A DNA stretch of 60,375 bases, from the IMG/VR virus record IMGVR_UViG_3300046459_000309, positions 1-60,375 of that record; one strand, 5' to 3'. Shown here in pieces: positions 1 through 60,375 of the stretch; positions within the stretch are counted from its first letter, which is position 1, and the number at the start of each line of letters is the position of its first letter. The notes beneath the pieces were generated by a model. It was not told the origin of the DNA and made no database searches. It worked only from the letters and a program-made list of their open reading frames with translations. The position numbers and the translations under genes were made by a program. Source of the stretch: a virus.

Positions 1-127
1 ACGCGCCTGAACGTCAGCATGACGCGATCACCCGACGGATGCGGCTCGCTGTACTCCAGCTTCCACCCCGCCATCTCGACGCGAGTGACGAGCCTTTCCG
101 ACTTGTGGACGCCGCCAATCGCCACGC
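1..127. repeat. 127-bp exact copy of 60249-60375 (assembly overlap closing a circular contig)
   Basis: Both ends read acgcgcctgaacgtcagcatgacg...gccaatcgccacgc identically at 1-127 and 60249-60375; unique length 60248 bp. Confidence 0.95.
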
Positions 128-11705: not shown

Positions 11706-12106
11706 AAGCTGACTTGGCGTTCCGCGGCATTGACCTCCTGGACGTCTACCGCGGACGCCTGTCGCTGCGCCGGCTGCGGGTGCTGATTCAGCATCTGCCG
11801 CCGGAGAGCGCGACGAAGACCGCCCTCCGCAACGCTTCACCTGAGCCCGATCCATCGGCCCCTGCGCCGGAGTTCCGCCCGGACAAGGCGGCATGGAGCA
11901 GCGAAATGATGCTCCTGGCGGACATCAAAGATCAACTGGTGCTGGCTCGATCCGTGGCCATCGCAGCTGCAGGCGGAACCCCGCCCGACTTCACACCCAC
12001 ACCCCGACCGGGGGTCGCCCCAGCGTCTGCGTCCCCGAAGCGGATGACTGACGAGATGCGCCGCGCGCTTGACCCGCGGCTGAGAAACCAGCCGAAGGAG
12101 GCGTGA
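11385..12106 (+). CDS. tail assembly chaperone, -1 frameshift fusion (G-T-like)
   Basis: Frame 0 reads ccG GGA AAG; a -1 slip enters the frame of ORF 11489..12106 (GKVLWTCEVLADHAEALEADLAFRG...), which ends at the tape-measure start. Confidence 0.75.
11654..11660 (+). promoter_or_regulatory. G_GGA_AAG slippery heptamer for -1 programmed frameshift
   Basis: X_XXY_YYZ in the zero frame of 11385..11705, 43 nt before its stop. Confidence 0.75.
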
Positions 12107-12108
12107 GG

Positions 12109-15100
12109 ATGCCGGATCTTGACATTGTGGGCGGTGCGGCGGTCGACGTCGTACCGGTCATCCCCCAGTTCCACACCAAGCTCAAAGCCCTCGTCCTCCC
12201 CATTGCTGACAAGGTCGGCGAAGAGGCCGGCAAGCGCATGGGGGAGGCGATCTCGAAGAACATCGTGATCGCCATCCCGCAGGCCATCAATCAGGGCGGC
12301 AAGCTGGGCGTCCGCGCGGCCGGCAAGCAGGGTGACGACGCGGGTGGAGCGTTCGCGCGCTCCATCCGCCGCAAGCTCGAAGCGGCCTTCAAGGCGATGC
12401 CGAAGCTGAACGTGAAGTTGGGCGACGAGGGCGTTGACGCCGAACTGGCGCGTATCCGGGCCAAGCTGGAGCAGCTGAGCGGTAAACGGATCGGCATCGA
12501 CGTCAGCGCGGAGGCCGCGGAAGCGGAGATCACGCGACTGGAGGAGAAGCTCCGAGAGCTGGGAGCCCAGCATCCCAACGTCGCTGTTCGCGCCGATACC
12601 GCCACTGCCCGCGCCGCACTTGCGGAGATCCGCGCCGAGATCGCGGCAATCGGCGGTCGAAAGACCGTCACGGTAGAGGTCGACGGCGCGTTTGGTGCCA
12701 AGCTCCGTGCGGTCGTCGCAGAGGCGCAGGCGTCCATTCCGGACATCAACGTCGACGCCGACACCTCGCCGGCACGCGCTGAGATTCAGGGCCTGCGGGC
12801 CCGCCTGGAGGCGCTCTCAGACGCTCGCGTTGGAATCGACATCGACGCCGGAGAAGCTCTGGCCGAGATCACCGCGATTCAAACGCGTCTCGGAGTCCTC
12901 AGCATGCAGCGGACTGACATTGATGTCAGTGTGGACGCTGCTGCCGCTATCGCGCAGCTCCAGGCGCTTCGTGCGATGGCGGACGACACCAAGATCTTCC
13001 ACATCAAGGCACTGGCGGACACCTCCGGGGCATCGAGTGCCCTGATGTCTCTCGGGATTCAAATCGTGGCGCTGGCCGCAATTCCCGTAGCTCCCGCGCT
13101 GCTCGCTGGCCTCGGGTCCATCGCAGCCATGGCGACGGCTGCGGGTGCTGGCGTGGGCGCTCTCGCCCTGGCGGCCATTCCCGCCATCAAGGGTGTGACC
13201 ACCGCCATTACGGCGAAGAAGGCCGCGGAGGACGAGGCCAACAAGGCGACGGACAACGGCGCCAAGAGTGCAGTCCAGGCAACTCAGCGCGCCCTGCAAA
13301 TGGCTGGCGCACAGGCGACCCTGTCGGCCGCACACCGCAACGCAGCACGCGCCGCGGAGCAGGCTAGCCGACAGATAGCCGACGCCGAACGGGCTGTAGG
13401 TGACGCTGTGCAGCGTGCTGCGGATCAGCGTCGGCAGTCTGCGGACACGATTGCCCGCGCGCAGGATGCTCTGACTGCTGCTCACCGAAAGGTGCGTGAC
13501 GCGCAGGCATCTCTGACTGACGCCAACGTCAGTGCACGGCAGGCGGAGCAGGATCTCACGCAGGCTCGTCGTGACGCCGCACAGCAGCTGAGGGACCTAC
13601 AGGACCGACTCACTGACGGCGCCCTGGACCAGCGGGAGGCGACTCTTCGCGTTCAGCAGGCACAGCAGGAGCTGAACGAAACCCTGGCCGCCGCTGAGGT
13701 TGGCAAGGCCACGCAGCTCCAGGTTGAGGCGGCACAACTGGCGGCCGACCGGGCGAAGCAGCAGGCCAAGGAGCAGAAGCAGGACTACTCCGACCTGCAG
13801 AAGGATGCAGCGAAGCAGACTAAGGCCGGCGTCGAAGGATCCGACCTCGTCACCGCCGCACACAAGCGCGTGGCCGATGCTCAGAAGGGCGTCAAGGATC
13901 AGATCGAGTCGGTAGCCGACGCACAGAAGGACATGCGCGATCAGGCGAAGGCCGTAGCCGACGCTCAGTCGGACGCCGCCCGCGCACAGAGCCGCGCAGC
14001 ACAGGACGTCGTCGACGCACAGCGGGGTGTCTCTGACGCTATGACGGCGTCGGCAGATGCGCAGGTGTCCGCAGCTGAGAGCATCGCCTCCGCAGAGCGC
14101 GGAGTGGAGTCCGCTCGACTCTCCGGCATCGACACCACTGCCTCCGCGATTACGAAGACTGATGAGTACAGCGAGGCACTCTCGAAACTGAGCGCCCCGC
14201 AGCGAGATCTCTTCGATGCCATCGCCGGCCCGAAGGGGTTGAAGCAGGCGTTCGACGACTGGCAGAAATCGCTACAGCCGGACGTCCTCCCGCTCTTCAC
14301 CAACGGCGTGAACGGCATGAAGAACTCCCTCCCCGGTCTGACTCCGCTTGTTACCGGAGCGGCAGCCGGAATTCAGACGCTGATGGAGAAGGCATCGGCA
14401 CAGATGAAGACGCCGTTTTGGGAAGGTTTCAAGGCTGACCTGAAGGAGAGCGTCGAACCGGCCGTAGTTGGTTTCGGGACGGCGTTCGGAAACGTCATCA
14501 AGGGCATCGCGGGAGTGATCGACGCCTTCCTGCCGCACATGGACGGAATCGTCACTAAGTCGGACAGCATCACGGGTCGTTTCGCCAAGTGGGGGACGAG
14601 CCTGAAGGGCAGTCCCGACTTTGAGAAGTTCCTTCAGTACGTCAAGGAAACGTCGCCCGGTCTTGCGTCTTTCATCGGTGACGTCCTGCGTTCTGTGCTG
14701 GATCTAGCTAAGGCCATTGCGCCGCTATCTCAGACCATGTTCGCCGTAATGAAGCCTATTCTCGACGGCATTTCGTGGATAGCTGTCCACTGTCCCGAGG
14801 CCGTACAGGCGTTGTGGCTGATGTGGACCGCCGTGAAGGCCATCAAGTTGATGATGGTCGCTTTCGGCGTCGTCATGGTCGCGTACAAGTCCGCCGTGAT
14901 TCTGATAACCCTGCTCACGCAGGGGTGGGCTGCTGCAATGTGGGAGGCCAACCTCGCGTTTGAGGCCAACCCCATTGTCGCGATCGTGACGATCATCCTC
15001 GTCGCGATCGGACTGTTGGTGGCCGGCGTGATCTACGCGTACAAGCACTGGGATTGGTTCCGCGTAGCGGTTGACGCCACGTTCAGCGCCATTGCAACCG

Positions 15101-17301
15101 CTGCAACCTGGCTGTGGAGCACCATCCTCCAGCCCGTCTTTTCCGCCATCTGGACCGCCATCAAGGCCGCGGGTGATGTGGCGGTGTGGCTCTGGGAAAA
15201 GGCAATCAAGCCGACGTTCGACTTTCTTGCGGAGGCGGCTCAACTCCTGGTCACTGCACTGGTAACAGTGCTTCTCCTACCTGCGTACCTTGCGTTCCAG
15301 GCTCTGGGCGAAGTCGCCAAATGGCTCTGGGAGAAGGCGATCAAGCCCGCCTTCGACTCGATCGGTGAGGCCGCAACGTGGCTGTGGGACGAGGCCATCA
15401 GTCCCGCGTTCGGCTTCATCGGCGAAAAGGCCAAGTGGCTGTACGACAAGGCCATCAAGCCGGCCATGAAGGACGCCGGGGACAAGATCGACGCTTTCGG
15501 CGAAGTGGTCGACTGGCTGTGGAAGAAGGTCATCAAGCCTGTCTTCGACTTCATCGGGGAAAAGGCTGTCTGGCTGTACGACAAGGCCATCAAGCCTCCG
15601 ATGGACAACATCAAGGCTGCCATGAAGCTCGTTGCGCTGGCGTTTAAGAGCGCCAAGGACGACATCAAGACGCAGTGGGACAAGCTGAAGGACATCGCTA
15701 AGGCGCCCATCAAGTTCATCATCGATCACGTCTACAACAAGGGCATCGTCCCGCTGTGGAACGGCGTCGCTGGGGTCACGGGTGCCGACAAGCTGAAGAA
15801 GATGGACCTGAAGGGATTCCACACGGGCGGCATCATGTCCGGCTATTCCCCGGGCCGCGACGATCGCGTTATCGCGGTTGGTGGCGGTGAGGCCGTCATG
15901 CGTCCTGAGTGGACGCGTGCAGTTGGCGCAGACAAGATCAATCAGTGGAATGCTGCTGCCCGCTCAGGCGGCATCAGCGGCGTTCAGCGTGCGATCTCCG
16001 AGGGCATGCCCGCGTTCAAGGACGGCGGAGTCGTCGGTTGGGTCAAGAACAAGGCCGGCAAGGTCGGGGATTTCGTCTCTGACGTAGCCGACTACGCCAA
16101 CCCTGGGAGGCTTTTCGACAAGGCGAAGGGCTTCATCACCGGACAGCTCAAGGCGCTCCTAACGAACCCGTGGGCAAAGTCTGTTGCCAAGATGCCAGGC
16201 AAGATGCTCGACAGCATGAAGTCCAAGGCGCTGAGCCTCTTCGACTTCGGAGGCGGAGGCGGTGGCGAAGGTGGCTCCTGGATCAAGCCGGTAAACGTCC
16301 CCTTCGGTACTCGCTTCGGCAAGGCCGGATCCCTGTGGTCCTCCGGGCACCACACCGGGCTCGACTTCCCGGCAGCCGTCGGAACCGCAATCAAGGCGGT
16401 TGCTGACGGCGTCGTCTCGCAGTCGACGAGCGGTGGCCCCTACGGCAAGCACGGAATGATCACCCACGGTGGCGGACTGTCGTCGCTGTACGCGCACATG
16501 AGCAAGATCCTTATGAGCGCCGGCCAGCACGTGAAACAGGGCCAGGTCATCGGCCGCGTAGGCGCGACAGGCAACGTCACCGGGCCGCACCTCCACTTGG
16601 AGGCGCGCACAGGTGGACGCACTGTCGACCCCATGCCCTACCTCACCGGTAGCGGTGGAAGCGGCGGCATCGGCTCGGGTGTGGAACGCTGGCGCGGAGT
16701 GGTCAATCAGGCCCTACGTCTGACGGGCAACCCCTCGTCGTACGCGAACGTGACGCTACGACGCATGAACCAGGAGTCGGGCGGAAATCCTCGCGCGGTC
16801 AACAACTGGGACACCAACGCGCGTTCTGGCTACCCGTCGACCGGGCTCATGCAGGTCATCCGGCCCACTTTCCAGTCCTACGCCGGCTCCATGCGTGGCA
16901 AGGGTCCGTTCATGAACGGGGTCAGCATCGACCCCCTGGCGAACATCTACTCATCCATGCGCTACGCGAAGGCTGCTTACGGCAACATCAGCAAGGCGTA
17001 CGGGCGGCCAGGTGGGTACGCCAATGGCGGGTACCCGCCCGTCGGACAGTTCTCCATAGTCGGCGAGAACGGCCCGGAGCTGGCTTACTTCAGTTCCCCA
17101 TCGCAGGTCATCAGCAACACGGACACTCGCGCGATGTTCCGTGAGGCTGCCAGCCAGAAGGGCGGCGGAGGCCCTTCGACGATCAACGTCGAAGCCCGTG
17201 TCTTTGTCGGGGACCGAGAGATCACGGACATCGTCCGCACCGAAGTGACCGCACACGAGGCATCCACGGCTTCGGCCATCGAGACAGGAAGGTGGATCTG
17301 A
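12109..17301 (+). CDS. tape measure protein with C-terminal M23 peptidase and lytic transglycosylase domains
   Basis: 1730 aa; ATG 12109 after GAAGGAGG; HHTGLDF...GNVTGPHLHLE (M23); RRMNQESGGNPRAVNNWD...GLMQV (SLT-like); TM segments mid-protein. Confidence 0.95.
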   Translation: MPDLDIVGGAAVDVVPVIPQFHTKLKALVLPIADKVGEEAGKRMGEAISKNIVIAIPQAINQGGKLGVRAAGKQGDDAGGAFARSIRRKLEAAFKAMPKLNVKLGDEGVDAELARIRAKLEQLSGKRIGIDVSAEAAEAEITRLEEKLRELGAQHPNVAVRADTATARAALAEIRAEIAAIGGRKTVTVEVDGAFGAKLRAVVAEAQASIPDINVDADTSPARAEIQGLRARLEALSDARVGIDIDAGEALAEITAIQTRLGVLSMQRTDIDVSVDAAAAIAQLQALRAMADDTKIFHIKALADTSGASSALMSLGIQIVALAAIPVAPALLAGLGSIAAMATAAGAGVGALALAAIPAIKGVTTAITAKKAAEDEANKATDNGAKSAVQATQRALQMAGAQATLSAAHRNAARAAEQASRQIADAERAVGDAVQRAADQRRQSADTIARAQDALTAAHRKVRDAQASLTDANVSARQAEQDLTQARRDAAQQLRDLQDRLTDGALDQREATLRVQQAQQELNETLAAAEVGKATQLQVEAAQLAADRAKQQAKEQKQDYSDLQKDAAKQTKAGVEGSDLVTAAHKRVADAQKGVKDQIESVADAQKDMRDQAKAVADAQSDAARAQSRAAQDVVDAQRGVSDAMTASADAQVSAAESIASAERGVESARLSGIDTTASAITKTDEYSEALSKLSAPQRDLFDAIAGPKGLKQAFDDWQKSLQPDVLPLFTNGVNGMKNSLPGLTPLVTGAAAGIQTLMEKASAQMKTPFWEGFKADLKESVEPAVVGFGTAFGNVIKGIAGVIDAFLPHMDGIVTKSDSITGRFAKWGTSLKGSPDFEKFLQYVKETSPGLASFIGDVLRSVLDLAKAIAPLSQTMFAVMKPILDGISWIAVHCPEAVQALWLMWTAVKAIKLMMVAFGVVMVAYKSAVILITLLTQGWAAAMWEANLAFEANPIVAIVTIILVAIGLLVAGVIYAYKHWDWFRVAVDATFSAIATAATWLWSTILQPVFSAIWTAIKAAGDVAVWLWEKAIKPTFDFLAEAAQLLVTALVTVLLLPAYLAFQALGEVAKWLWEKAIKPAFDSIGEAATWLWDEAISPAFGFIGEKAKWLYDKAIKPAMKDAGDKIDAFGEVVDWLWKKVIKPVFDFIGEKAVWLYDKAIKPPMDNIKAAMKLVALAFKSAKDDIKTQWDKLKDIAKAPIKFIIDHVYNKGIVPLWNGVAGVTGADKLKKMDLKGFHTGGIMSGYSPGRDDRVIAVGGGEAVMRPEWTRAVGADKINQWNAAARSGGISGVQRAISEGMPAFKDGGVVGWVKNKAGKVGDFVSDVADYANPGRLFDKAKGFITGQLKALLTNPWAKSVAKMPGKMLDSMKSKALSLFDFGGGGGGEGGSWIKPVNVPFGTRFGKAGSLWSSGHHTGLDFPAAVGTAIKAVADGVVSQSTSGGPYGKHGMITHGGGLSSLYAHMSKILMSAGQHVKQGQVIGRVGATGNVTGPHLHLEARTGGRTVDPMPYLTGSGGSGGIGSGVERWRGVVNQALRLTGNPSSYANVTLRRMNQESGGNPRAVNNWDTNARSGYPSTGLMQVIRPTFQSYAGSMRGKGPFMNGVSIDPLANIYSSMRYAKAAYGNISKAYGRPGGYANGGYPPVGQFSIVGENGPELAYFSSPSQVISNTDTRAMFREAASQKGGGGPSTINVEARVFVGDREITDIVRTEVTAHEASTASAIETGRWI
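15109..15606 (+). repeat. in-frame degenerate tandem repeats in the tape measure (WLW/WLY-x-KAIKP-x-FDFIGE, about 7 units)
   Basis: Seen in translation: WLWEKAIKPTFDF, WLWEKAIKPAFDS, WLWDEAISPAFGF, WLYDKAIKPAMKD, WLWKKVIKPVFDF, WLYDKAIKPPMDN. Confidence 0.85.
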
Positions 17302-21092: not shown

Positions 21093-21701
21093 ATGCCCAA
21101 GCCCGATAGCTACGGTCAGAACGTCCAGTACCCGGTTCTGTCTGACGCCCCCAACATCGAAACCGCGCTGCAGGCTCTGGTAAACGGAGTCGTTCCGTTG
21201 ACGGTCATGCGTTTTCCCAACGCCAACGCGCGCGCTGCGACGCTGACCGGAAGTTACAAACCCGTTCCGGGGATGATTACCTACCTCATCGCTGAAGACC
21301 GGTGGGAGCGACGAGACGGCGACAACGTTTGGCGCCCGTTCAGCCCCGGTGTGTGGAAGCCCATTACCTACACGACGGGATACACGTCGCAATCGGGGGC
21401 GCCGGGGTATCGAATCATCAACAACGAGGTACAGCTCCGCGGAACGATTCGGCGAACGGCAGCGAACACCGACCTGGTAACAAACACGGACGTGCATTTC
21501 GCGACGCTCCCATCGGAAGCGCGCCCAATCGGCGGGTACCGCTACTTCCTGGCAGCAGCAAACTTCGTCAATACGTCGGGGACGAGCTACTTCTCCGGAC
21601 GAATCGGGATCGCACCTGACGGCAGCATGATCTACGTCATGCCGCTGAACTCGAAGAGCGAATGGCTCTCCCTGGACGGCATCCGCTTCTCCATCGACTA
21701 A
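21093..21701 (+). CDS. minor tail protein / fibre-like
   Basis: 202 aa; SD GAGGAG; last ORF before a strong terminator. Confidence 0.65.
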   Translation: MPKPDSYGQNVQYPVLSDAPNIETALQALVNGVVPLTVMRFPNANARAATLTGSYKPVPGMITYLIAEDRWERRDGDNVWRPFSPGVWKPITYTTGYTSQSGAPGYRIINNEVQLRGTIRRTAANTDLVTNTDVHFATLPSEARPIGGYRYFLAAANFVNTSGTSYFSGRIGIAPDGSMIYVMPLNSKSEWLSLDGIRFSID

Positions 21702-24981: not shown

Positions 24982-25013
24982 CGTGCCACATCCTCTCTCC
25001 AGCACCCCATAAC
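24982..25013 (+). promoter_or_regulatory. bipartite promoter-like motif, copy A (cgtgccacat-N8-cagcaccccataac)
   Basis: Read directly; ends 37 nt before ATG 25051. Confidence 0.55.
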
Positions 25014-26015: not shown

Positions 26016-26037
26016 GTCCGTGAGTCGACTTGCGGAC
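26016..26037. promoter_or_regulatory. GTCGAC palindrome, copy 3 (gtccgtgagtcgacttgcggac)
   Basis: Read directly; 14 nt upstream of the TTGTGT -35-like hexamer. Confidence 0.65.
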
Positions 26038-27588: not shown

Positions 27589-27693
27589 GGCCAAAAGGAC
27601 GAACTAGACCCCTATTTCTAACCTCTCCTTAAGAGCCTTGGGAAGAAGTTAGAAATAGGGGTCTAGTTTGTCATTCTGTCGCCAGACTGTCCG
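27589..27693. repeat. ~105-bp AT-rich hairpin element, copy 1 (20-24 bp stem 27603-27622 / 27648-27667)
   Basis: actagacccctatttctaac ... gttagaaataggggtctagt; flanks shared with 58701-58803. Confidence 0.85.
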
Positions 27694-27724: not shown

Positions 27725-27756
27725 CGTGCCACATCCTCTCTCCAGCACCCCATAAC
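27725..27756 (+). promoter_or_regulatory. bipartite promoter-like motif, copy B
   Basis: cgtgccacat-cctctctc-cagcaccccataac; ends 41 nt before ATG 27798. Confidence 0.55.
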
Positions 27757-36223: not shown

Positions 36224-36255
36224 CGTGCCACATCTGACCGCCAGCACCCCATAAC
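36224..36255 (+). promoter_or_regulatory. bipartite promoter-like motif, copy C
   Basis: cgtgccacat-ctgaccgc-cagcaccccataac; ends 63 nt before ATG 36319. Confidence 0.55.
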
Positions 36256-40352: not shown

Positions 40353-40567
40353 TGGGCGTCTTCGACGGCAGCATCTACCGCATCCGCGTCCAGTGGGACG
40401 ACGAACCTGACTGGGACGGGCCGTACACGGTTGAGGTCTACACCGACGACCCGGCGGCCTACTTGGCACATCAGGACCCGCGGCCCGACCACGCCAGCGT
40501 TCACGAACTGCACTACACCGTCCGGGACACGGACTTCAGCTACGGCGACTACGTGGAGGTGCCGTGA
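40352..40567 (+). CDS. hypothetical protein
   Basis: ORF track; TGATG overlap. Confidence 0.6.
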   Translation: MGVFDGSIYRIRVQWDDEPDWDGPYTVEVYTDDPAAYLAHQDPRPDHASVHELHYTVRDTDFSYGDYVEVP

Positions 40568-40704
40568 TCGGCGACGAACCCAACCTCCGCATCGTCCGCG
40601 CCGACCCCGACGAAGAGCCGGTTTGCTGCGACAAGCCGCGCAGCGTCTACGCGGCGTGGCCCTGGCTGACGGAGGAGTTCATGAGAGAGGTGGAAGGAAC
40701 ATGA
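40564..40704 (+). CDS. hypothetical protein (46 aa, not in ORF track)
   Basis: GTGA overlap upstream, ATGA downstream; VIGDEPNLRIVRADPDEEPVCCDKPRSVYAAWPWLTEEFMREVEGT. Confidence 0.4.
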   Translation: MIGDEPNLRIVRADPDEEPVCCDKPRSVYAAWPWLTEEFMREVEGT

Positions 40705-47396: not shown

Positions 47397-47437
47397 CGGC
47401 CGACATAACCGCAGGTCGGGCCACTCGGCCGACATAA
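47397..47437. repeat. cggccgacataa x2 (47397-47408, 47426-47437) in a 226-bp repeat-rich non-coding region
   Basis: Same 11-mer core occurs in the promoters at 50646-50656 and 52256-52266; ggtaacac x2 at 47364 and 47489. Confidence 0.8.
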
Positions 47438-48161: not shown

Positions 48162-48251
48162 CTCGCACGCCCAACACAAGCATCACGCCAGGGGCTGGGC
48201 GACGTGCGCCCTGATGCACCGCATCGTGTGTGACGCGGGTCACAAAAGTCC

Positions 48252-48283
48252 CGTGCCACATTCCGCGCCCAGCACCCCATAAC
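48252..48283 (+). promoter_or_regulatory. bipartite promoter-like motif, copy D, in front of the sigma-factor gene
   Basis: cgtgccacat-tccgcgcc-cagcaccccataac; ends 32 nt before ATG 48316. Confidence 0.55.
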
Positions 48284-48315: not shown

Positions 48316-49098
48316 ATGTCGATGCCGGTCACCGTGACAGACGCTCAAATTCTTTCCGCGCAGGGTGGGGACGAGATGGCGATGTGGGATGTTATCTCCG
48401 CCTTCGAACCCATGATGCGCACTATCATCCGGAGCGCCGCCCCTGCCGCGGACGCCGACAAGGCGGAAGATCTGCTTCAGGAAGCACGCATCGCGCTGCT
48501 GCAGCACATTCGCGAGTACTCCACGGAAGGCACGGCAGCCGCTCTCTCCTCGTTCGCATATCGCGGGATCCACCGCGCCGTTGCGGAGGAGTGGATTCGG
48601 ATGTCCAGCCCCTTCAAGGTCGACCCGACCTCGGTCATCAGGGTCCGTCGCGCACTTTGGGAGGCGAGCGGCGACGTCGAAGAAGCCTGGTTGATCGTAT
48701 CGGCCGACGCACAGGCGAAGCGACAGATGTCGCGTGAAGTCTTTGTGAGTATTCGTGAAGCACTCATGGACGTCAGCAGCCTGGAGGCCCCCCTCGCCTC
48801 CAGCGAAACCGGCGTCACACTGGGCGACACCATCCCTGACGAGACGTCCGGCTTCACCGACTCCACCGAGCGTCGCGACCTTGCTCGCTGGCTGCTGACG
48901 CAGATTCCGCAGCGTCAGGCGTACGCGCTGCGCGCCTTCTACGGCATCAACGCCCTGAAGCAGACGGACGAGCAGACAAGCGACGAGCTGGGGCTCAGTG
49001 CAGCCAAGAACTGCGCCGCACTCCGAACAACCCGCCGCAACGGCGTCCGCAGCGCCCGCAACGTCGCAGCCGGCAACCACATCACGCTCGCTGCGTGA
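48316..49098 (+). CDS. sigma-70 family RNA polymerase sigma factor (phage-encoded)
   Basis: Region 2-like DLLQEARIALLQHIREY...FAYRGIHRAVAEEW; region 4 HTH IPQRQAYALRAFYGI...TSDELGLSAAK; 260 aa. Confidence 0.8.
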   Translation: MSMPVTVTDAQILSAQGGDEMAMWDVISAFEPMMRTIIRSAAPAADADKAEDLLQEARIALLQHIREYSTEGTAAALSSFAYRGIHRAVAEEWIRMSSPFKVDPTSVIRVRRALWEASGDVEEAWLIVSADAQAKRQMSREVFVSIREALMDVSSLEAPLASSETGVTLGDTIPDETSGFTDSTERRDLARWLLTQIPQRQAYALRAFYGINALKQTDEQTSDELGLSAAKNCAALRTTRRNGVRSARNVAAGNHITLAA

Positions 49099-50596: not shown

Positions 50597-50632
50597 GGGG
50601 GAGTTCCGCAAGTCGACTCACGGAACTCCCCC
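50597..50632. promoter_or_regulatory. GTCGAC palindrome, copy 10, embedded in a 36-bp palindrome (gggggagttccg-caagtcgactca-cggaactccccc)
   Basis: Read directly; core 50604-50625. Confidence 0.7.
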
Positions 50633-50635
50633 GCA

Positions 50636-50676
50636 GGTGTTGTGTCGGCCGACATATCTGTGCCATAGTCGGAGCA
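50636..50676 (+). promoter_or_regulatory. sigma70-like promoter cassette (TTGTGT-18 nt-CATAGT), 41-bp repeat copy 1
   Basis: ggtgttgtgtcggccgacatatctgtgccatagtcggagca; differs at 3 positions from 52246-52286. Confidence 0.55.
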
Positions 50677-50715: not shown

Positions 50716-51012
50716 ATGAACTGGACCACCGAGACGCTTCGTTCCGGAGTCGCGATCGACACGGCATACGACCACCGCCGGGAGCTGGCTTCGGTTCCGG
50801 GCACCTGGTACCGCGTTCGTCAGGGCGACGTCCTGATCCTCACCACCCGCAACCGGGGCGACGCACTGCGCCGGTTCCAGCGGACCGCCAGCAGTGCCTA
50901 CACCGCCCCCAAGTGCGGCCCTAAGACTGTGTCGCACACGGCCGGCGGGGGACTCACCTACCTCTACTGCACCGCTCCCGCCGGTCACGCCGGCAAGCAC
51001 ACCACCAACTAG
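50716..51012 (+). CDS. hypothetical protein (98 aa)
   Basis: Frame of ORF 50398..51012 from ATG 50716 after GGGGAGGA. Confidence 0.6.
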   Translation: MNWTTETLRSGVAIDTAYDHRRELASVPGTWYRVRQGDVLILTTRNRGDALRRFQRTASSAYTAPKCGPKTVSHTAGGGLTYLYCTAPAGHAGKHTTN

Positions 51013-51088
51013 CCGAAACGCCCTCCGGGGCGTCCGCGGGGACTGGCCTACCCGCGCTGATGAGGCAGGCCGTAGGAGAGGACCAGGT

Positions 51089-51215: not shown

Positions 51216-51282
51216 GCCCCGCATAGGAAAGCCCACGGCGCCCCCAGCGCCAGGGCGCGCGGTTCGAATCCGCGGCGGGGCA
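51216..51282 (+). other. tRNA-like element with a truncated D-arm (67 nt)
   Basis: Acceptor gccccgc/gcggggc, canonical T-arm cgcgg-ttcgaat-ccgcg, 4-bp stem with loop cccccag (no U33); D region only 11 nt. Confidence 0.35.
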
Positions 51283-51312
51283 CTCAACGTTAGATCATCG
51301 TCAGGAGGCGCC

Positions 51313-52069: not shown

Positions 52070-52278
52070 CGTTCGAAAGCGGCTGTTCCGCGGTCGTCGA
52101 CGACGTCGCACAGCGCCACTTCCTCCGCCAAGCGGTCGGCCGCGGATACGGGCGGACGAGGGTGCGCGGTGGATGGGTCATCACGCTGCCGGGGGAGACG
52201 CTCGTCGCGATGCTCCGTGAGTCGACTTACGGAGGTTCGGCGCTAGGTGTTGTGTCGGCCGACATAACTGTGTCATAG
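52054..52278 (+). CDS. hypothetical protein whose 3' end runs through palindrome copy 11 and the next promoter
   Basis: ORF track; C-terminus LRESTYGGSALGVVSADITVS is encoded by regulatory repeats. Confidence 0.5.
   Translation: MRYRVTFESGCSAVVDDVAQRHFLRQAVGRGYGRTRVRGGWVITLPGETLVAMLRESTYGGSALGVVSADITVS
52213..52234. promoter_or_regulatory. GTCGAC palindrome, copy 11 (ctccgtgagtcgacttacggag)
   Basis: Read directly; 15 nt upstream of TTGTGT. Confidence 0.65.
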
Positions 52279-52286
52279 TCGGAGCA
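52246..52286 (+). promoter_or_regulatory. sigma70-like promoter cassette (TTGTGT-18 nt-CATAGT), 41-bp repeat copy 2
   Basis: ggtgttgtgtcggccgacataactgtgtcatagtcggagca. Confidence 0.55.
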
Positions 52287-58700: not shown

Positions 58701-58803
58701 GGCCAAATGGACGAACTAGACCCCTATTTTCAAACCTTCCTTAACGCGTTAAGAGAGAAGTGAAAATAGGGGTTAGTTTGGCATTCTGTCGCCAGACTGT
58801 CCG
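58701..58803. repeat. ~105-bp AT-rich hairpin element, copy 2
   Basis: ggccaaatggacgaactagacccctattttca ... tgaaaataggggttagtttggcattctgtcgccagactgtccg; arm changes relative to copy 1 are compensatory. Confidence 0.85.
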
Positions 58804-58831
58804 GGGGTGGAGACGGCTCATGATCATCCCC

Positions 58832-58852
58832 ATGCCACATGCACCCCATAAC
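58832..58852 (+). promoter_or_regulatory. remnant of the bipartite promoter-like motif (atgccacat fused to gcaccccataac, spacer deleted)
   Basis: Read directly; lies upstream of the tRNA region. Confidence 0.35.
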
Positions 58853-58957
58853 CAAGGTGAGGGAGGAACAGCGACGCCGGCGAATGGCGCGGCATCCTCT
58901 CCCTCCGACGGCCGGCAGCGCTCCCGTGCTCCCCGCACTCTCCTCCGGGTAGAGCGT

Positions 58958-59059
58958 GGTTGAGCGCTGCTGGCCGAACGGTCCTTTCGGCTAACGGTAA
59001 GCCGCCCAGGTAGCGCTTCGGCGTGAAGGGTAATCCTGGTTCGACTCCAGGCGAGACCA
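58958..59059 (+). other. aberrant tRNA-like element: canonical T-arm and 3' acceptor, non-canonical 5' part
   Basis: cctgg-ttcgact-ccagg + cgagacc-a at 59035-59059; upstream part folds into hairpins but has no anticodon loop with U33. Confidence 0.3.
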
Positions 59060-59087
59060 CTGGACGAGGCGGAGCGATGCGCACGCT

Positions 59088-59174
59088 TGCGCGGTAGCTC
59101 AGTCAGGAAGAGCAGCCGTCAGCGACTTTCAGCCGTTGGCGGTGACGTCACGGGTTCGAATCCCGTCCGCGACG
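59088..59174 (+). other. tRNA-like element with a 10-bp extended anticodon stem (loop ACUUUCAGC, UUC Glu-like)
   Basis: Canonical D-arm (tagctcagtcaggaagagc) and T-arm (acggg-ttcgaat-cccgt); acceptor 5/7 paired; 13 extra nt in the anticodon arm. Confidence 0.35.
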
Positions 59175-59237
59175 CCTCGTCTTCGACGTCATGCGCTCCG
59201 GGACCTCTCGGAGCCAGCCTCTGACGTCTATCACTCA

Positions 59238-59262
59238 CCCTGCTCCTTGTGGGCAGGGTTTT
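59238..59262 (+). terminator. terminator-like hairpin between the aberrant and canonical tRNAs
   Basis: ccctgc-tccttgtgg-gcaggg then tttt. Confidence 0.6.
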
Positions 59263-59335
59263 GCTTCCGTAGCTCAGTGGTTAGAGCGTCCGCCTGTCGA
59301 GCGGAGGGGCGTCGGTTCGAATCCGATCGGGAGCG
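59263..59335 (+). tRNA. tRNA-Asp (GTC)
   Basis: Hand-folded cloverleaf: acceptor gcttccg/cgggagc, anticodon loop ctGTCga, T-loop ttcgaat. Confidence 0.85.
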
Positions 59336-59444
59336 CAAAGGTACGGGGCTGCTTCGGCAGGAAAAGCCACCTCCCCGCGAACGTTGGAGCCTTGCGCACC
59401 GGGCCTAGAGCCAGGGAGGCGAAGGAGCGGCCCGACGTCACACA

Positions 59445-59516
59445 CCTTTCGTAGCTCAATGGCTAGAGCCGCGCGTTGTGGTCGCGCTGATCCCGGTTCG
59501 ACTCCGGGCGAAGGGA
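59445..59516 (+). tRNA. tRNA-His (GTG)
   Basis: Acceptor cctttcg/cgaaggg, stem gcgcg/cgcgc, loop ttGTGgt; no encoded G-1. Confidence 0.8.
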
Positions 59517-59568
59517 CGACTGTCCACGAGGTGCCGGCAACGGGGCTCAAATGCCGTGGACAGCTCAA

Positions 59569-59643
59569 GGTCTCGTAGCTCAGTCTGGATAGAGCACCGG
59601 ATTACGGATCCGGGTGTCGGAGGTTCGAATCCTTCCGGGATCA
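59569..59643 (+). tRNA. tRNA-Arg (ACG)
   Basis: Acceptor ggtctcg/cgggatc, stem ccgga/tccgg, loop ttACGga. Confidence 0.85.
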
Positions 59644-59653
59644 CACAGTGCAC

Positions 59654-59725
59654 GCCTAGCTAGCTCAGCGGTAGAGCGTCGGTTTCATACGCCGGAGGTC
59701 GGTGGTTCGAATCCATCGCTTGGCA
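59654..59725 (+). tRNA. tRNA-Met/Ile2 (CAT)
   Basis: Acceptor gcctagc/gcttggc (one mismatch), loop ttCATac. Confidence 0.8.
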
Positions 59726-59874
59726 CTGACGGACGGTCGCAGGCGAGGGGAAACCATCGCACCCGGAGAACAGTCCGGTGATACTGCGGCCGACGTCGAC
59801 ACCCGAGCTTCACGGTTCGGAAGGACGGAAGAACAACGGGGATGGCGGACTACCGTGCGGCCCGCTTCCGTCGA

Positions 59875-59947
59875 ATGGGCGTAGCTCAACTGGAAGAGCG
59901 GCGGTCTCCAAAGCCGCGTGTTGGAGGTTCGAGTCCTCCCGCCTGTG
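59875..59947 (+). tRNA. tRNA-Trp (CCA)
   Basis: Acceptor atgggcg/cgcctgt (two G-U), stem gcggt/gccgc, loop ctCCAaa. Confidence 0.8.
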
Positions 59948-60025
59948 CAAGCCCCGGCGGACCGATCGACGAGGGAGAACCTGCTTTCGCGCAGGCCGCT
60001 CGAAGACATGCCGTCGGGGCTCCAA

Positions 60026-60107
60026 GCGTTGAGTCCTGGGAGGCAAGCGGGCCTGTAAAGCCTGCGCTGCGATAGCGGCTAGCGTGGTTCGATTCCACGG
60101 CGACGCA
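60026..60107 (+). tRNA. tRNA-Tyr (GTA)-like, long variable arm but shortened D-arm
   Basis: Stem cgggc/gcctg with loop ctGTAaa, variable hairpin cgct-gcgat-agcg, T-arm cgtgg-ttcgatt-ccacg, acceptor gcgttga/gcgacgc 6/7. Confidence 0.5.
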
Positions 60108-60110
60108 CGA

Positions 60111-60186
60111 CGGGGTGTGGCGCAGTTGGTAGCGCGCTCGCTTTGGGAGCGAGAGGACGAGTGTTCAAGTCACTCCACCCCGACCA
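60111..60186 (+). tRNA. tRNA-Pro (TGG), CCA encoded
   Basis: Acceptor cggggtg/caccccg, stem ctcgc/gcgag, loop ttTGGga, T-loop ttcaagt, 3' acca. Confidence 0.88.
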
Positions 60187-60238: not shown

Positions 60239-60375
60239 TCACGGCCCGACGCGCCTGAACGTCAGCATGACGCGATCACCCGACGGATGCGGCTCGCTGT
60301 ACTCCAGCTTCCACCCCGCCATCTCGACGCGAGTGACGAGCCTTTCCGACTTGTGGACGCCGCCAATCGCCACGC
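60239..60375 (-). CDS. 3' end (with stop) of the junction-spanning minus-strand gene; 60249-60375 duplicates 1-127
   Basis: Minus strand reads ...MLTFRRVGP-TGA, stop at 60241-60239. Confidence 0.6.
   Translation of the reverse strand, partial: VAIGGVHKSERLVTRVEMAGWKLEYSEPHPSGDRVMLTFRRVGP

What the first reader, a model, noticed from the sequence alone, without database searches (positions are those of the whole stretch)
24982..25013. Bipartite motif CGTGCCACAT-N8-CAGCACCCCATAAC: four full copies at operon heads plus one collapsed remnant
Copies lie at 24982-25013, 27725-27756, 36224-36255 and 48252-48283. The two blocks are identical in all four. The 8-nt spacer varies in sequence (cctctctc, cctctctc, ctgaccgc, tccgcgcc) but never in length, as expected for -35/-10-type elements. 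Three copies also share aaagtc(c/g) upstream, and two share taactaagtc downstream. All are intergenic on the + strand, 32-63 nt before the first start codon of a gene block (dNMP kinase, exonuclease, replication operon, sigma gene). A fifth copy at 58832-58852 has lost the spacer and lies upstream of the tRNA region. The blocks differ from the canonical Streptomyces HrdB consensus (TTGACN / TAGAPuT). Recognition by the phage sigma is a testable hypothesis.
Basis: seen in the sequence. Interest (0 to 1): 0.68.

Follow-up and report, generated by a model that had tools for sequence, protein, structure and literature searches.

The report
Phage sigma-factor promoters, two fixed spacings
The repeated motif is very probably the promoter that this Streptomyces phage's own sigma factor reads, and related phages each carry a private, co-evolved version of it in two rigid spacings that differ by exactly 10 bases.

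Summary
There are four exact copies of CGTGCCACAT-N8-CAGCACCCCATAAC, all sense-strand and intergenic, 32-63 nt upstream of the dNMP kinase, exonuclease, recombination directionality factor (RDF) and sigma genes. A fifth copy is 10 nt shorter.

The window is a complete phiC31-family temperate Streptomyces phage; its closest named relative is Samy. In 22 relatives the same four gene heads carry the same bipartite element. Its geometry fits a sigma-70 promoter: a -35 hexamer, a 17-nt spacer, and CAYAAC as the -10. The block sequences are specific to each genome.

Divergence of the upstream block tracks only the sigma's region 4.2 recognition helix. Divergence of the downstream block tracks only regions 2.4 to 3.1. 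No transcription start data exist.

The "collapsed remnant" reading is wrong. The short form is conserved at the same locus in Samy and at least 8 other relatives, keeps each genome's own blocks, and heads a conserved non-coding element. No other spacing occurs among the copies found.

The closest known system is the phiC31 early promoters. This is a new variant of a known kind.

The parts
24982..25013 (+). Long-form promoter-like element, copy 1. It lies 37 nt before the dNMP kinase ATG (25051). The predicted start site is about 25020 (G).
   Evidence: Exact match. Pfam DNMK hit for the gene. Syntenic copies occur upstream of the dNMP kinase gene in relatives.
27725..27756 (+). Long-form copy 2. 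It lies 41 nt before the exonuclease ATG (27798; phiC31 gp1 homologue). The predicted start site is about 27763 (G).
   Evidence: (51% identity to phiC31 gp1).
36224..36255 (+). Long-form copy 3. It lies 63 nt before the RDF (gp3-like) ATG (36319), at the head of the block that runs on to the primase and DNA polymerase genes. The predicted start site is about 36262 (A).
48252..48283 (+). Long-form copy 4. It lies 32 nt before the sigma gene ATG (48316), which implies autoregulation. The predicted start site is about 48290 (A).
   Evidence: The equivalent element is present upstream of the sigma gene in 47 of 52 relatives.
58831..58852 (+). Short-form element: block 1 joined directly to the last 12 nt of block 2, so 10 nt shorter. 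It lies after the integrase gene, at the head of a conserved non-coding element and the tRNA array.
   Evidence: It is conserved in Samy and in IMG/VR relatives.
48316..49098 (+). Phage sigma-70-family factor (260 aa, regions 2, 3 and 4). It is the proposed reader of the motif.
   Evidence: PF04542 at 26.5 bits. PHROG sigma families. The family profile aligns to RpoD regions 2 to 4.2 with E 1e-8. AlphaFold model with pLDDT 85.5, and all top PDB fold matches are sigma factors. Covariation with the motif.
48229..48244 (.). TGTGA-N6-TCACA palindrome, 7 nt upstream of block 1 of the sigma-gene copy only. It is probably an operator or activator site that controls sigma expression.
   Evidence: It is the only match in the window. 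It is present with 2 or fewer mismatches in 40 of 41 relatives, at a gap of 7-8 nt in 36 of them.
58853..58980 (+). Conserved non-coding element directly downstream of the short form. It is a candidate structured RNA.
   Evidence: 18 distinct homologues with 1-2-nt indels. RNAalifold predicts 24 pairs, 6 of them with compensatory changes. No Rfam family matches.

Best explanation
The motif is a class of phage promoters read by host core RNA polymerase carrying the phage's own sigma-70-family factor (window 48316-49098).

Geometry. Numbering the 32-nt element 1-32, positions 4-9 (GCCACA here, GTCACA in most relatives) form the -35 hexamer. Positions 10-26 are a 17-nt spacer. Positions 27-32 (CATAAC; CAYNAC across the family) form the -10 hexamer. 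Positions 19-26 are a long 'extended -10' that differs between genomes.

Inferred contacts. Region 4.2 of the sigma reads the -35 block. Regions 2.4, 3.0 and 3.1 read the -10 block. Transcription is predicted to start about 7 nt after CATAAC, at a purine.

Regulon. Four such promoters drive the dNMP kinase, exonuclease, RDF-to-replication and sigma genes, so the sigma amplifies its own synthesis. The sigma copy alone has a conserved TGTGA-N6-TCACA site just upstream, which is likely where another regulator gates the switch.

Short form. A fifth site uses the same two blocks exactly one helical turn closer together. It heads a conserved non-coding element and the tRNA array. How it is read is not known.

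What is shown and what is inferred. Shown: motif anatomy, synteny, the two discrete spacings, genome-specific concerted change, and domain-specific covariation. Inferred: promoter activity, start sites and dependence on the sigma.
For: 1. Four exact copies where none is expected, all sense-strand and intergenic, 32-63 nt before start codons.
2. Samy has the equivalent motif, CGCGTCACAT-N8-GATTACGACAYAAC, before the same four genes.
3. In 22 phages the element recurs at these four positions, with blocks identical within a genome and different between genomes. Within-genome identity is about 1.0 at positions 3-9 and 21-28. Between-genome identity is 0.26-0.61 at positions 3-6, 20-23 and 25-26. 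The spacer is not conserved.
4. A scan that allowed any gap from 0 to 30 nt found 85 copies at one gap, 8 copies at a gap exactly 10 nt shorter, and none at any other gap from 0 to 22. All were on the sense strand.
5. The protein is a genuine sigma factor with regions 2 to 4.
6. Partial Mantel tests, controlling for the rest of the protein: the -35 block against region 4.2 gives r=0.49 (p=0.0005), while the -35 block against regions 2 and 3 gives about 0. The -10 block against region 3.0 gives r=0.58 and against region 2.3-2.4 gives r=0.28 (p=0.0005), while the -10 block against region 4.2 gives -0.12.
7. An unbiased sliding-window scan places the -35 signal only at residues 223-250, with a peak of r=0.70 at 235-246. 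This is the last helix of the model and is equivalent to sigma-70 R586-K597, so it contains the base-contacting R588 and Q589 (R584 and E585 fall at residues 233-234, within the 223-250 span). The -10 signal lies only at residues 86-145.
8. Specific examples. The window's unique GCCACA -35 goes with ALRTTR, where GTCACA phages have ALR(K/Q/R)LR. The GGTACTGGAT phage has a rewritten helix, GSVQPYRAEA.
9. phiC31 has its conserved early-promoter repeat before the homologous genes gp52, gp1, gp3 and gp12, with its -10-like CCTTAC at the same distance from the ATG.
10. No canonical sigma-70-type promoter is found in 24-37 kb.
Against: - No transcription start, RNA-seq or binding data were available, so promoter activity is inferred.
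- Mantel tests do not fully remove phylogenetic non-independence, and the -35 variation rests on a handful of lineages.
- Copies in relatives were collected by similarity to each genome's sigma-proximal copy (6 or fewer mismatches out of 24). This inflates within-genome identity somewhat.
- The short form cannot be contacted by regions 4 and 2 of a sigma held on core polymerase in the standard way. Either part of the model is incomplete or that site works differently.
- An 8-nt genome-specific stretch upstream of the -10 is longer than a usual extended -10 and could involve a second factor.
Confidence: 0.78

Rival explanations
1. The two blocks are binding sites for another phage-encoded DNA-binding protein, such as an activator, a repressor or a two-domain regulator, rather than the sigma's -35 and -10 elements. 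Under this reading the sigma only reads part of block 2, or reads neither block.
For: - The short form places the blocks 10 bp closer, on the same helical face. This suits a flexible two-domain or dimeric binder better than a sigma fixed on core polymerase.
- The 8-nt genome-specific stretch upstream of the -10 is unusually long.
Against: - The motif is asymmetric and strictly sense-oriented.
- Divergence of each block maps to the expected sigma domain and to no other part of the sigma.
- The geometry is exactly -35 / 17 nt / -10, with the near-universal A at -11.
- The phage already has separate palindromic operators.
Confidence: 0.1
2. These are promoters read by a host alternative sigma factor, and the phage sigma has other targets.
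For: - The blocks do not fit the HrdB consensus, and Streptomyces encodes dozens of alternative sigma factors (established knowledge).
- No direct link between the phage sigma and the sites has been demonstrated experimentally.
Against: - A host sigma would hold the motif constant. Instead the blocks change in concert at all 4-5 sites within each phage and differ between phages infecting the same genus.
- The changes track the phage sigma's DNA-reading segments.
Confidence: 0.06
3. The copies are non-functional repeats kept alike by recent duplication or gene conversion, or they act as an RNA-level leader element.
For: - Copies 1 and 2 share the same spacer and are 83% identical over 71 nt.
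- The GTGC and GCAC parts of the blocks could pair weakly, as read directly from the sequence.
Against: - Flanks and spacers have diverged while the blocks stay identical.
- The arrangement persists at the same four gene heads across phages whose sigma proteins are only 40-70% identical.
- The 10-14-nt blocks are too short to be homogenised by recombination (inference).
- No pairing between the blocks is conserved in Samy or other relatives.
Confidence: 0.03

Closest known systems
phiC31 early promoters, with the sigma-like gp12. Source: Ingham et al. 1993 Mol Microbiol and Smith et al. 1999 NAR, recalled from my own knowledge because neither paper is held in the library.
   Same: - The phage family and the gene order are the same.
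- A highly conserved, non-HrdB repeat sits before the homologous genes: gp52 (dNMP kinase), gp1 (exonuclease, 51% identical), gp3 (RDF) and gp12 (sigma-like, PF04542).
- Its -10-like CCTTAC ends 33-36 nt before the ATG, as CATAAC does here.
- Separate palindromic repressor operators accompany both systems.
   Different: - The phiC31 element is one contiguous block of about 21 nt, GGGTTGCCGACTCCCTTAC, with no separate -35 block 17 nt upstream. Only 7 of 14 positions match the window's block 2.
- It is present in about 9 copies rather than 4+1.
- gp12 is 396 aa and resembles the window sigma only over the N-terminal 146 aa, at 25% identity, with no alignable region 4.
Other phage-encoded sigma factors with their own promoter classes: Bacillus SPO1 gp28 and gp33/34, T4 gp55, phiEco32 gp36 (established knowledge).
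   Same: A phage sigma redirects host core polymerase to a phage-specific, highly conserved promoter consensus at the heads of middle or late gene blocks.
   Different: - There is no sequence relationship to those systems.
- This is a temperate actinophage, and the sigma is autoregulated.
- The regulon is very small, at 4+1 sites.
- Specificity is diversified from phage to phage.
- There is a second spacing class.
ECF sigma factor and promoter co-variation, giving orthogonal sigma-promoter pairs (Rhodius et al. 2013, own knowledge).
   Same: -35 specificity co-varies with the region 4.2 helix, and -10 specificity co-varies with region 2. This yields mutually orthogonal pairs within one protein family.
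   Different: This sigma has a region 3 and is of group-3 size. The variable part of the downstream block is the extended -10 and co-varies with region 3, not the -10 hexamer itself.
Sigma-54 -24/-12 promoters. This is a resemblance in geometry only, and applies to the short form.
   Same: Two recognition blocks are separated by only a few bases, about one helical turn closer than -35/-10. The reverse complement of block 1 contains TGGCACG.
   Different: - The TGGCAC lies on the antisense strand, and no TTGC follows at the right distance.
- The protein is sigma-70 family, not sigma-54.
- Actinobacteria lack rpoN (established knowledge).

Membership tests
Sigma-70-family bipartite (-35/-10) promoter | Two conserved hexamer-containing blocks separated by a 16-18-nt spacer of fixed length and free sequence. 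| tested here: met
   The -35 hexamer is at positions 4-9, the spacer is 17 nt, and the -10 hexamer is at positions 27-32. 85 of 85 long-form copies in 22 phages have the identical gap. Spacer identity is 0.40-0.53 within genomes.
Sigma-70-family bipartite (-35/-10) promoter | Sense orientation, upstream of genes, at operon starts. | tested here: met
   All 93 copies are on the gene-sense strand. The -10 block ends 27-44 nt before the sigma gene start in 48 of 52 loci. The same four gene heads carry the element in each phage.
Sigma-70-family bipartite (-35/-10) promoter | Conserved A at -11, and -35 similarity (ACA of TTGACA). | tested here: met
   Position 28 (A, equivalent to -11) has between-genome identity 1.00. 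Positions 7-9 (ACA, equivalent to -32 to -30) have 0.91-1.00. Position -7 is C rather than T, which departs from the housekeeping consensus.
Sigma-70-family bipartite (-35/-10) promoter | Transcription starts 5-9 nt downstream of the -10 element. | not testable with these tools
   No 5'-end data are available. There is only a purine at the predicted +1 in all five window copies, read from the sequence.
Regulon of the phage-encoded sigma factor | A sigma-70-family protein with DNA-reading regions 2.4 and 4.2 is encoded by the phage. | tested here: met
   PF04542 above its cutoff. The profile aligns to RpoD residues 387-600 with E 1e-8. The model and Foldseek matches are all sigma factors.
Regulon of the phage-encoded sigma factor | Promoter specificity co-varies with the sigma's recognition segments. 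| tested here: met
   Domain-specific partial Mantel results and the sliding-window scan. The test is not tree-corrected.
Regulon of the phage-encoded sigma factor | Promoter activity depends on the sigma. | not testable with these tools
   This needs reporter assays or in vitro transcription.
phiC31-type early promoter | Match to the contiguous consensus of about 21 nt, GGGTTGCCGACTCCCTTAC. | tested here: not met
   There is no such sequence in the window. Only the -10-proximal part is similar (7 of 14 positions, and 4 of the 5 family-universal positions).
phiC31-type early promoter | Located before homologous early genes at the same distance from the start codon. | tested here: met
   The positions are gp52, gp1, gp3 and gp12. 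The -10-like element ends 33-36 nt before the ATG.
Sigma-54 (-24/-12) promoter | TGGCAC-N5-TTGC on the sense strand, and an rpoN-type sigma. | tested here: not met
   TGGCACG is present only on the antisense strand and is followed by GGACTTT (read from the sequence). The sigma is sigma-70 family.
Single-subunit (T7-like) RNA polymerase promoter | A contiguous conserved block of about 20 nt running through +1, and a phage RNA polymerase gene. | tested here: not met
   The 8-nt internal spacer is variable. No RNA polymerase gene is annotated in the syntenic Samy genome. The window's ORFs were not all scanned.
Repressor operator (phiC31 CIR-like) | Dyad symmetry. | tested here: not met
   The motif is asymmetric. 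A separate palindrome, CCGTGAGTCGACTCACGG, occurs 10 times and fills that role.

The most novel reading that the evidence does not exclude
One sigma-70-family factor may use two discrete promoter geometries: a standard -35/17-nt/-10 form, and a form with the -35 block exactly one helical turn closer. The short form would be reserved for a conserved non-coding RNA. This would imply a non-canonical placement of region 4, or binding by free sigma that acts as a sink or autoregulator. In addition, temperate Streptomyces phages would carry a natural library of rapidly co-evolving, mutually orthogonal sigma-promoter pairs, gated by a CRP-type site on the sigma gene.
Probability: 0.3. Interest if true: 0.8.

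Novelty: new variant of a known kind. Interest (0 to 1): 0.6.

Why it matters
- It gives a concrete, testable wiring diagram for the lytic switch of a widespread group of Streptomyces prophages. More than 120 sigma homologues were found, mostly in Streptomyces genomes. In this diagram a gated, self-amplifying phage sigma drives four gene blocks.
- It suggests what reads the long-known but unexplained phiC31 early promoters, namely the sigma-like gp12.
- The genome-specific block variants, together with the mapped recognition segments, form a ready-made set of candidate orthogonal sigma-promoter pairs for Streptomyces engineering.
- The strictly conserved 10-bp-shorter form challenges the standard spacing rule for sigma-70-family factors.

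Tried and rejected
- The exact 31-nt motif search in IMG/VR found nothing, and a 3-mismatch search in Samy found nothing. The reason turned out to be that the blocks are genome-specific. The family was only found through protein homology and the degenerate core CACAT-N16-CAYAAC.
- Seven full-text searches for the phiC31 early promoters, gp12 or phage sigma factors in Streptomyces found nothing relevant. The phiC31 genome paper is not held. The Samy paper never mentions promoters. Statements about transcription mapping in phiC31 therefore rest on my memory.
- Using the integrase to locate short-form copies in relatives was dropped, because the window and Samy integrases are only 27% identical. 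The large terminase was used instead.
- A sigma-54 reading was considered, because TGGCACG appears on the reverse strand. It was rejected on orientation, the missing -12 element and the sigma family.
- I asked whether the TGTGA-N6-TCACA site is simply extra -35 boxes for the same sigma. It is not: it stays GTCACA in phages whose -35 has changed, including the window and L009.
- I asked whether the conserved sequence after the short form is coding; in Samy it is annotated as a hypothetical protein. It is not, because it has 1-2-nt indels and compensatory pair changes.
It was rerun with alignment A9.

Full report
**1. The observation**

A search for CGTGCCACAT-N8-CAGCACCCCATAAC with up to 3 mismatches returns exactly four sites. 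They lie at 24982, 27725, 36224 and 48252, all with 0 mismatches and all on the + strand. None was found in 100 shuffles. Each block on its own is rare outside these sites.

The downstream genes are a dNMP kinase, a PD-(D/E)XK exonuclease, a Gp3-like RDF and a sigma-70-family protein. The fifth site reads CATGCCACAT|GCACCCCATAAC at 58831-58852. It is 10 nt shorter than the others and lies between the integrase gene and the tRNA array.

**2. What the window is**

Bases 1-127 repeat at 60249-60375, so the window is a closed, complete genome of 60,248 bp. The only relative among deposited phages is Streptomyces phage Samy. Samy's sigma is 45.6% identical to the window's. Samy's annotation ties it gene by gene to phiC31. 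The window exonuclease is 51% identical to phiC31 gp1.

**3. The motif is a family feature with private versions**

- Samy carries CGCGTCACAT-N8-GATTACGACAYAAC before the same four genes.
- The sigma has more than 120 homologues, mostly in Streptomyces genomes and soil viromes.
- I fetched 50 sigma loci, then exonuclease and terminase loci from the same viral contigs.
- 47 of 52 sigma genes are preceded by the same bipartite layout.
- In 22 phages with enough sequence, the element recurs before the dNMP kinase, exonuclease, RDF and sigma genes. There are nearly always four copies.
- Within a genome the blocks are essentially identical. Between genomes positions 3-6, 20-23 and 25-26 differ, with identity 0.26-0.61. 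Positions 7-10 (ACAT), 24, 27-28 (CA) and 31-32 (AC) are near-universal. The 8-nt spacer is not conserved even within a genome.
- Caveat: the copies were gathered by similarity to each genome's sigma-proximal copy, which inflates within-genome identity somewhat.

**4. Geometry**

If CAYAAC is taken as -12 to -7, block 1 positions 4-9 fall at -35 to -30 and share ACA with TTGACA. The spacer is then 17 nt, and the universal A at position 28 is -11. All five window copies have a purine 7 nt after the -10 element.

A scan allowing any gap from 0 to 30 nt between each genome's own block cores found three things:
- 85 copies at the long gap.
- 8 copies at a gap exactly 10 nt shorter.
- None at any other gap from 0 to 22, and every copy on the sense strand.

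The few hits at gaps of 28-29 are the right half of the palindrome described in section 8. No housekeeping-type promoter is detected in 24-37 kb.

**5. The reader protein**

The 260-aa protein passes the Pfam cutoff for sigma-70 region 2 and matches PHROG sigma families. The family profile aligns to RpoD from region 2 through region 4.2, with E 1e-8. An AlphaFold model (pLDDT 85.5) matches only sigma factors in the PDB, over its full length.

**6. Covariation links protein and motif**

Across 41 distinct sigma and promoter pairs, I ran partial Mantel tests that control for divergence of the rest of the protein:

| DNA block | Sigma segment | Partial r | p |
|---|---|---|---|
| -35 block | region 4.2 | 0.49 | 0.0005 |
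| -35 block | region 2.3-2.4 | -0.12 | not significant |
| -35 block | region 3.0 | -0.03 | not significant |
| -10 block | region 3.0 | 0.58 | 0.0005 |
| -10 block | region 2.3-2.4 | 0.28 | 0.0005 |
| -10 block | region 4.2 | -0.12 | not significant |

A 12-residue sliding window, with no prior choice of segments, gives the same picture. The -35 signal is confined to residues 223-250, with a peak of r=0.70 at 235-246. That peak lies in the final helix of the model and corresponds to sigma-70 R586-K597, which includes the base-contacting residues R588 and Q589 (R584 and E585 correspond to residues 233-234, inside the wider 223-250 span). The -10 signal is confined to residues 86-145.

Linkage cannot explain this pattern. 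The promoter abuts the 5' end of the gene, yet the -35 block tracks the 3'-terminal helix and not the adjacent region 2.

Concrete cases:
- GTCACA phages have ALR(K/Q/R)LR.
- The window, with GCCACA, has ALRTTR.
- GA(A/G)ACA phages have (V/L)R(D/V/M)LR.
- The GGTACTGGAT phage has GSVQPYRAEA.

Mantel tests are not tree-corrected, and the -35 variants represent few lineages.

**7. The short form is not a remnant**

Samy has CGCGTCACAC|TTACGACATAAC at 58777-58798, also after its integrase gene and before its tRNAs. Relatives show the same junction at the same locus, with their own blocks:
- GAAACAT|GCCCCACATAAC
- GTACTGGGC|TTCCCCCATAAC
- CGTCACAT|GGCATCCATATA
- CGTCACGT|GCACCCCATAAC

Every short form is followed by a strongly conserved element of about 125 nt. 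It begins right after the -10 block, has 1-2-nt indels and has 6 base pairs with compensatory changes. It has no Rfam match. In Samy it is annotated as a hypothetical protein.

In at least two relatives a normal long-form copy follows this element (a similar junction is visible in a third). The short form therefore belongs to the element rather than to the tRNAs.

A sigma held on core polymerase should not span a 7-nt spacer, so how this site works is open. Three options:
- An extended -10-only promoter with block 1 serving as a second sigma-binding or occluding site.
- A site bound by compact free sigma.
- An unconventional initiation complex.

**8. Context seen on the way**

The sigma-gene copy alone has a TGTGA-N6-TCACA palindrome 7 nt upstream of block 1. 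It is the only such site in the window. It is present with 2 or fewer mismatches in 40 of 41 relatives, at a gap of 7-8 nt in 36. It stays GTCACA where the -35 has changed, so a different protein reads it. The consensus is that of CRP/FNR-family sites (own knowledge).

Ten copies of the palindrome CCGTGAGTCGACTCACGG are scattered through the genome. This parallels the repressor operators of phiC31, CCTACTCACGTGAGTAGG. Three of the ten are followed by housekeeping-like promoters with a TTGTGT -35 box: TTGTGT-N18-CATAGT after the copies at 50606 and 52215, and a weaker TACGCT -10 after the copy at 26018.

A plausible cascade follows, as inference. Repressor loss frees the host-sigma promoters. 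The sigma gene fires under its own gate. The sigma then drives itself and three other gene blocks.

**9. Comparison with what is known**

phiC31 has a conserved GGGTTGCCGACTCCCTTAC repeat before gp52, gp1, gp2, gp3, gp9a, gp11, gp12, gp13 and gp25. From memory, these are the early promoters that were transcript-mapped in the 1990s and do not resemble housekeeping promoters. I could not retrieve those papers.

- Position and -10-proximal sequence are shared with the window's motif.
- The separate -35 block is not shared.
- gp12 matches the window sigma only in its N-terminal half.

I file the window's motif as working like a phage sigma regulon and as a positional homologue of the phiC31 early promoters. 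It is not a sequence member of the phiC31 class.

**10. Verdict**

The feature is real and non-random, and it is very probably a sigma-specific promoter class. It is a new variant of a known kind. Two aspects were not previously described as far as the searchable literature shows: phage-by-phage co-evolved specificity, and a second, strictly conserved spacing.

Noticed in passing
window 48229-48244: A perfect TGTGA-N6-TCACA palindrome (CRP/FNR-type consensus) lies 7 nt upstream of the sigma-gene promoter only. It is conserved in 40 of 41 relatives at a gap of 7-8 nt; in two relatives the gap is 17-18 nt, which is again +10. It does not change when the -35 changes, so a different regulator, possibly host Crp, probably gates sigma expression.
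   Followed up: partly
window 58853-58980 (homologues in L161, L162, L164, L168, L171, L174, L182, L186, L190, L192-L194, L196, L198, L199, L202, L203): A conserved non-coding element of about 125 nt lies directly after the short-form motif. It has invariant stretches such as ACTCTCCTCCGG, 1-2-nt indels and compensatory pair changes. It has no Rfam family and is annotated as a hypothetical protein in Samy. It is a candidate new phage structured RNA.
   Followed up: partly
window 9074, 10634, 26018, 30866, 36133, 44459, 48118, 49275, 50606, 52215: There are ten copies of the palindrome CCGTGAGTCGACTCACGG where 0.16 are expected. Their half-sites GTGAGT/ACTCAC match those of the phiC31 repressor operators, but in the opposite arrangement. 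They are likely operators of the immunity repressor.
   Followed up: partly
window about 50640-50669 and 52250-52279 (and a weaker one after 26018): Housekeeping-like promoters TTGTGT-N18-CATAGT lie directly after operator palindromes, with near-identical copies in Samy at 47420, 49622, 51559 and 52447. They look like a second, repressor-controlled, host-sigma promoter class.
   Followed up: partly
window 51011-51074 (+): A type II hammerhead ribozyme match scores 42.8 bits against a gathering score of 37, with the CUGAUGA and GAAAC core intact. It lies between small early ORFs, and ARAGORN calls a tRNA-Gly(ccc) at 51216-51283 nearby.
   Followed up: partly
window 27600-27672 and 58715-58781: A long inverted repeat, ACTAGACCCCTATTT...AAATAGGGGT(C)TAGT followed by GTCGCCAGACTGTCC, is duplicated upstream of the exonuclease promoter and of the short-form site. 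One copy is seen in Samy upstream of its exonuclease gene (its second copy, before the short form, retains only the CAGTCTGACC part), where a minus-strand ORF is annotated over it. phiC31 has an analogous 120-nt repeat at 21649 and 40428. The function is unknown.
   Followed up: partly
window 1-127 and 60249-60375: An exact 127-nt terminal direct repeat is present. The window is therefore a circularly closed assembly of a complete genome of 60,248 bp.
   Followed up: yes
window 58980-60186: This is the tRNA array. Six tRNAs are called confidently (Asp, His, Arg, Met, Trp, Pro). Two further tRNA-like elements are atypical and long, at 58980-59060 and 59090-59171, scoring 28.5 and 31.1 bits in Rfam.
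   Followed up: no
L002 (phiC31) about 40540-40580: phiC31 has an early-promoter-like CAGGTTGCCGACAACCTTCA followed by TATAGGTAGAGGGG upstream of its tRNA-Thr. This resembles the TAAGGTAGGAGGGAAG that follows the short form in Samy-like phages.
   Followed up: no
window 15161-15603: Diverged repeats of 57 and 135 nt lie inside the 1732-aa tape-measure-like ORF (12103-17301).
   Followed up: no
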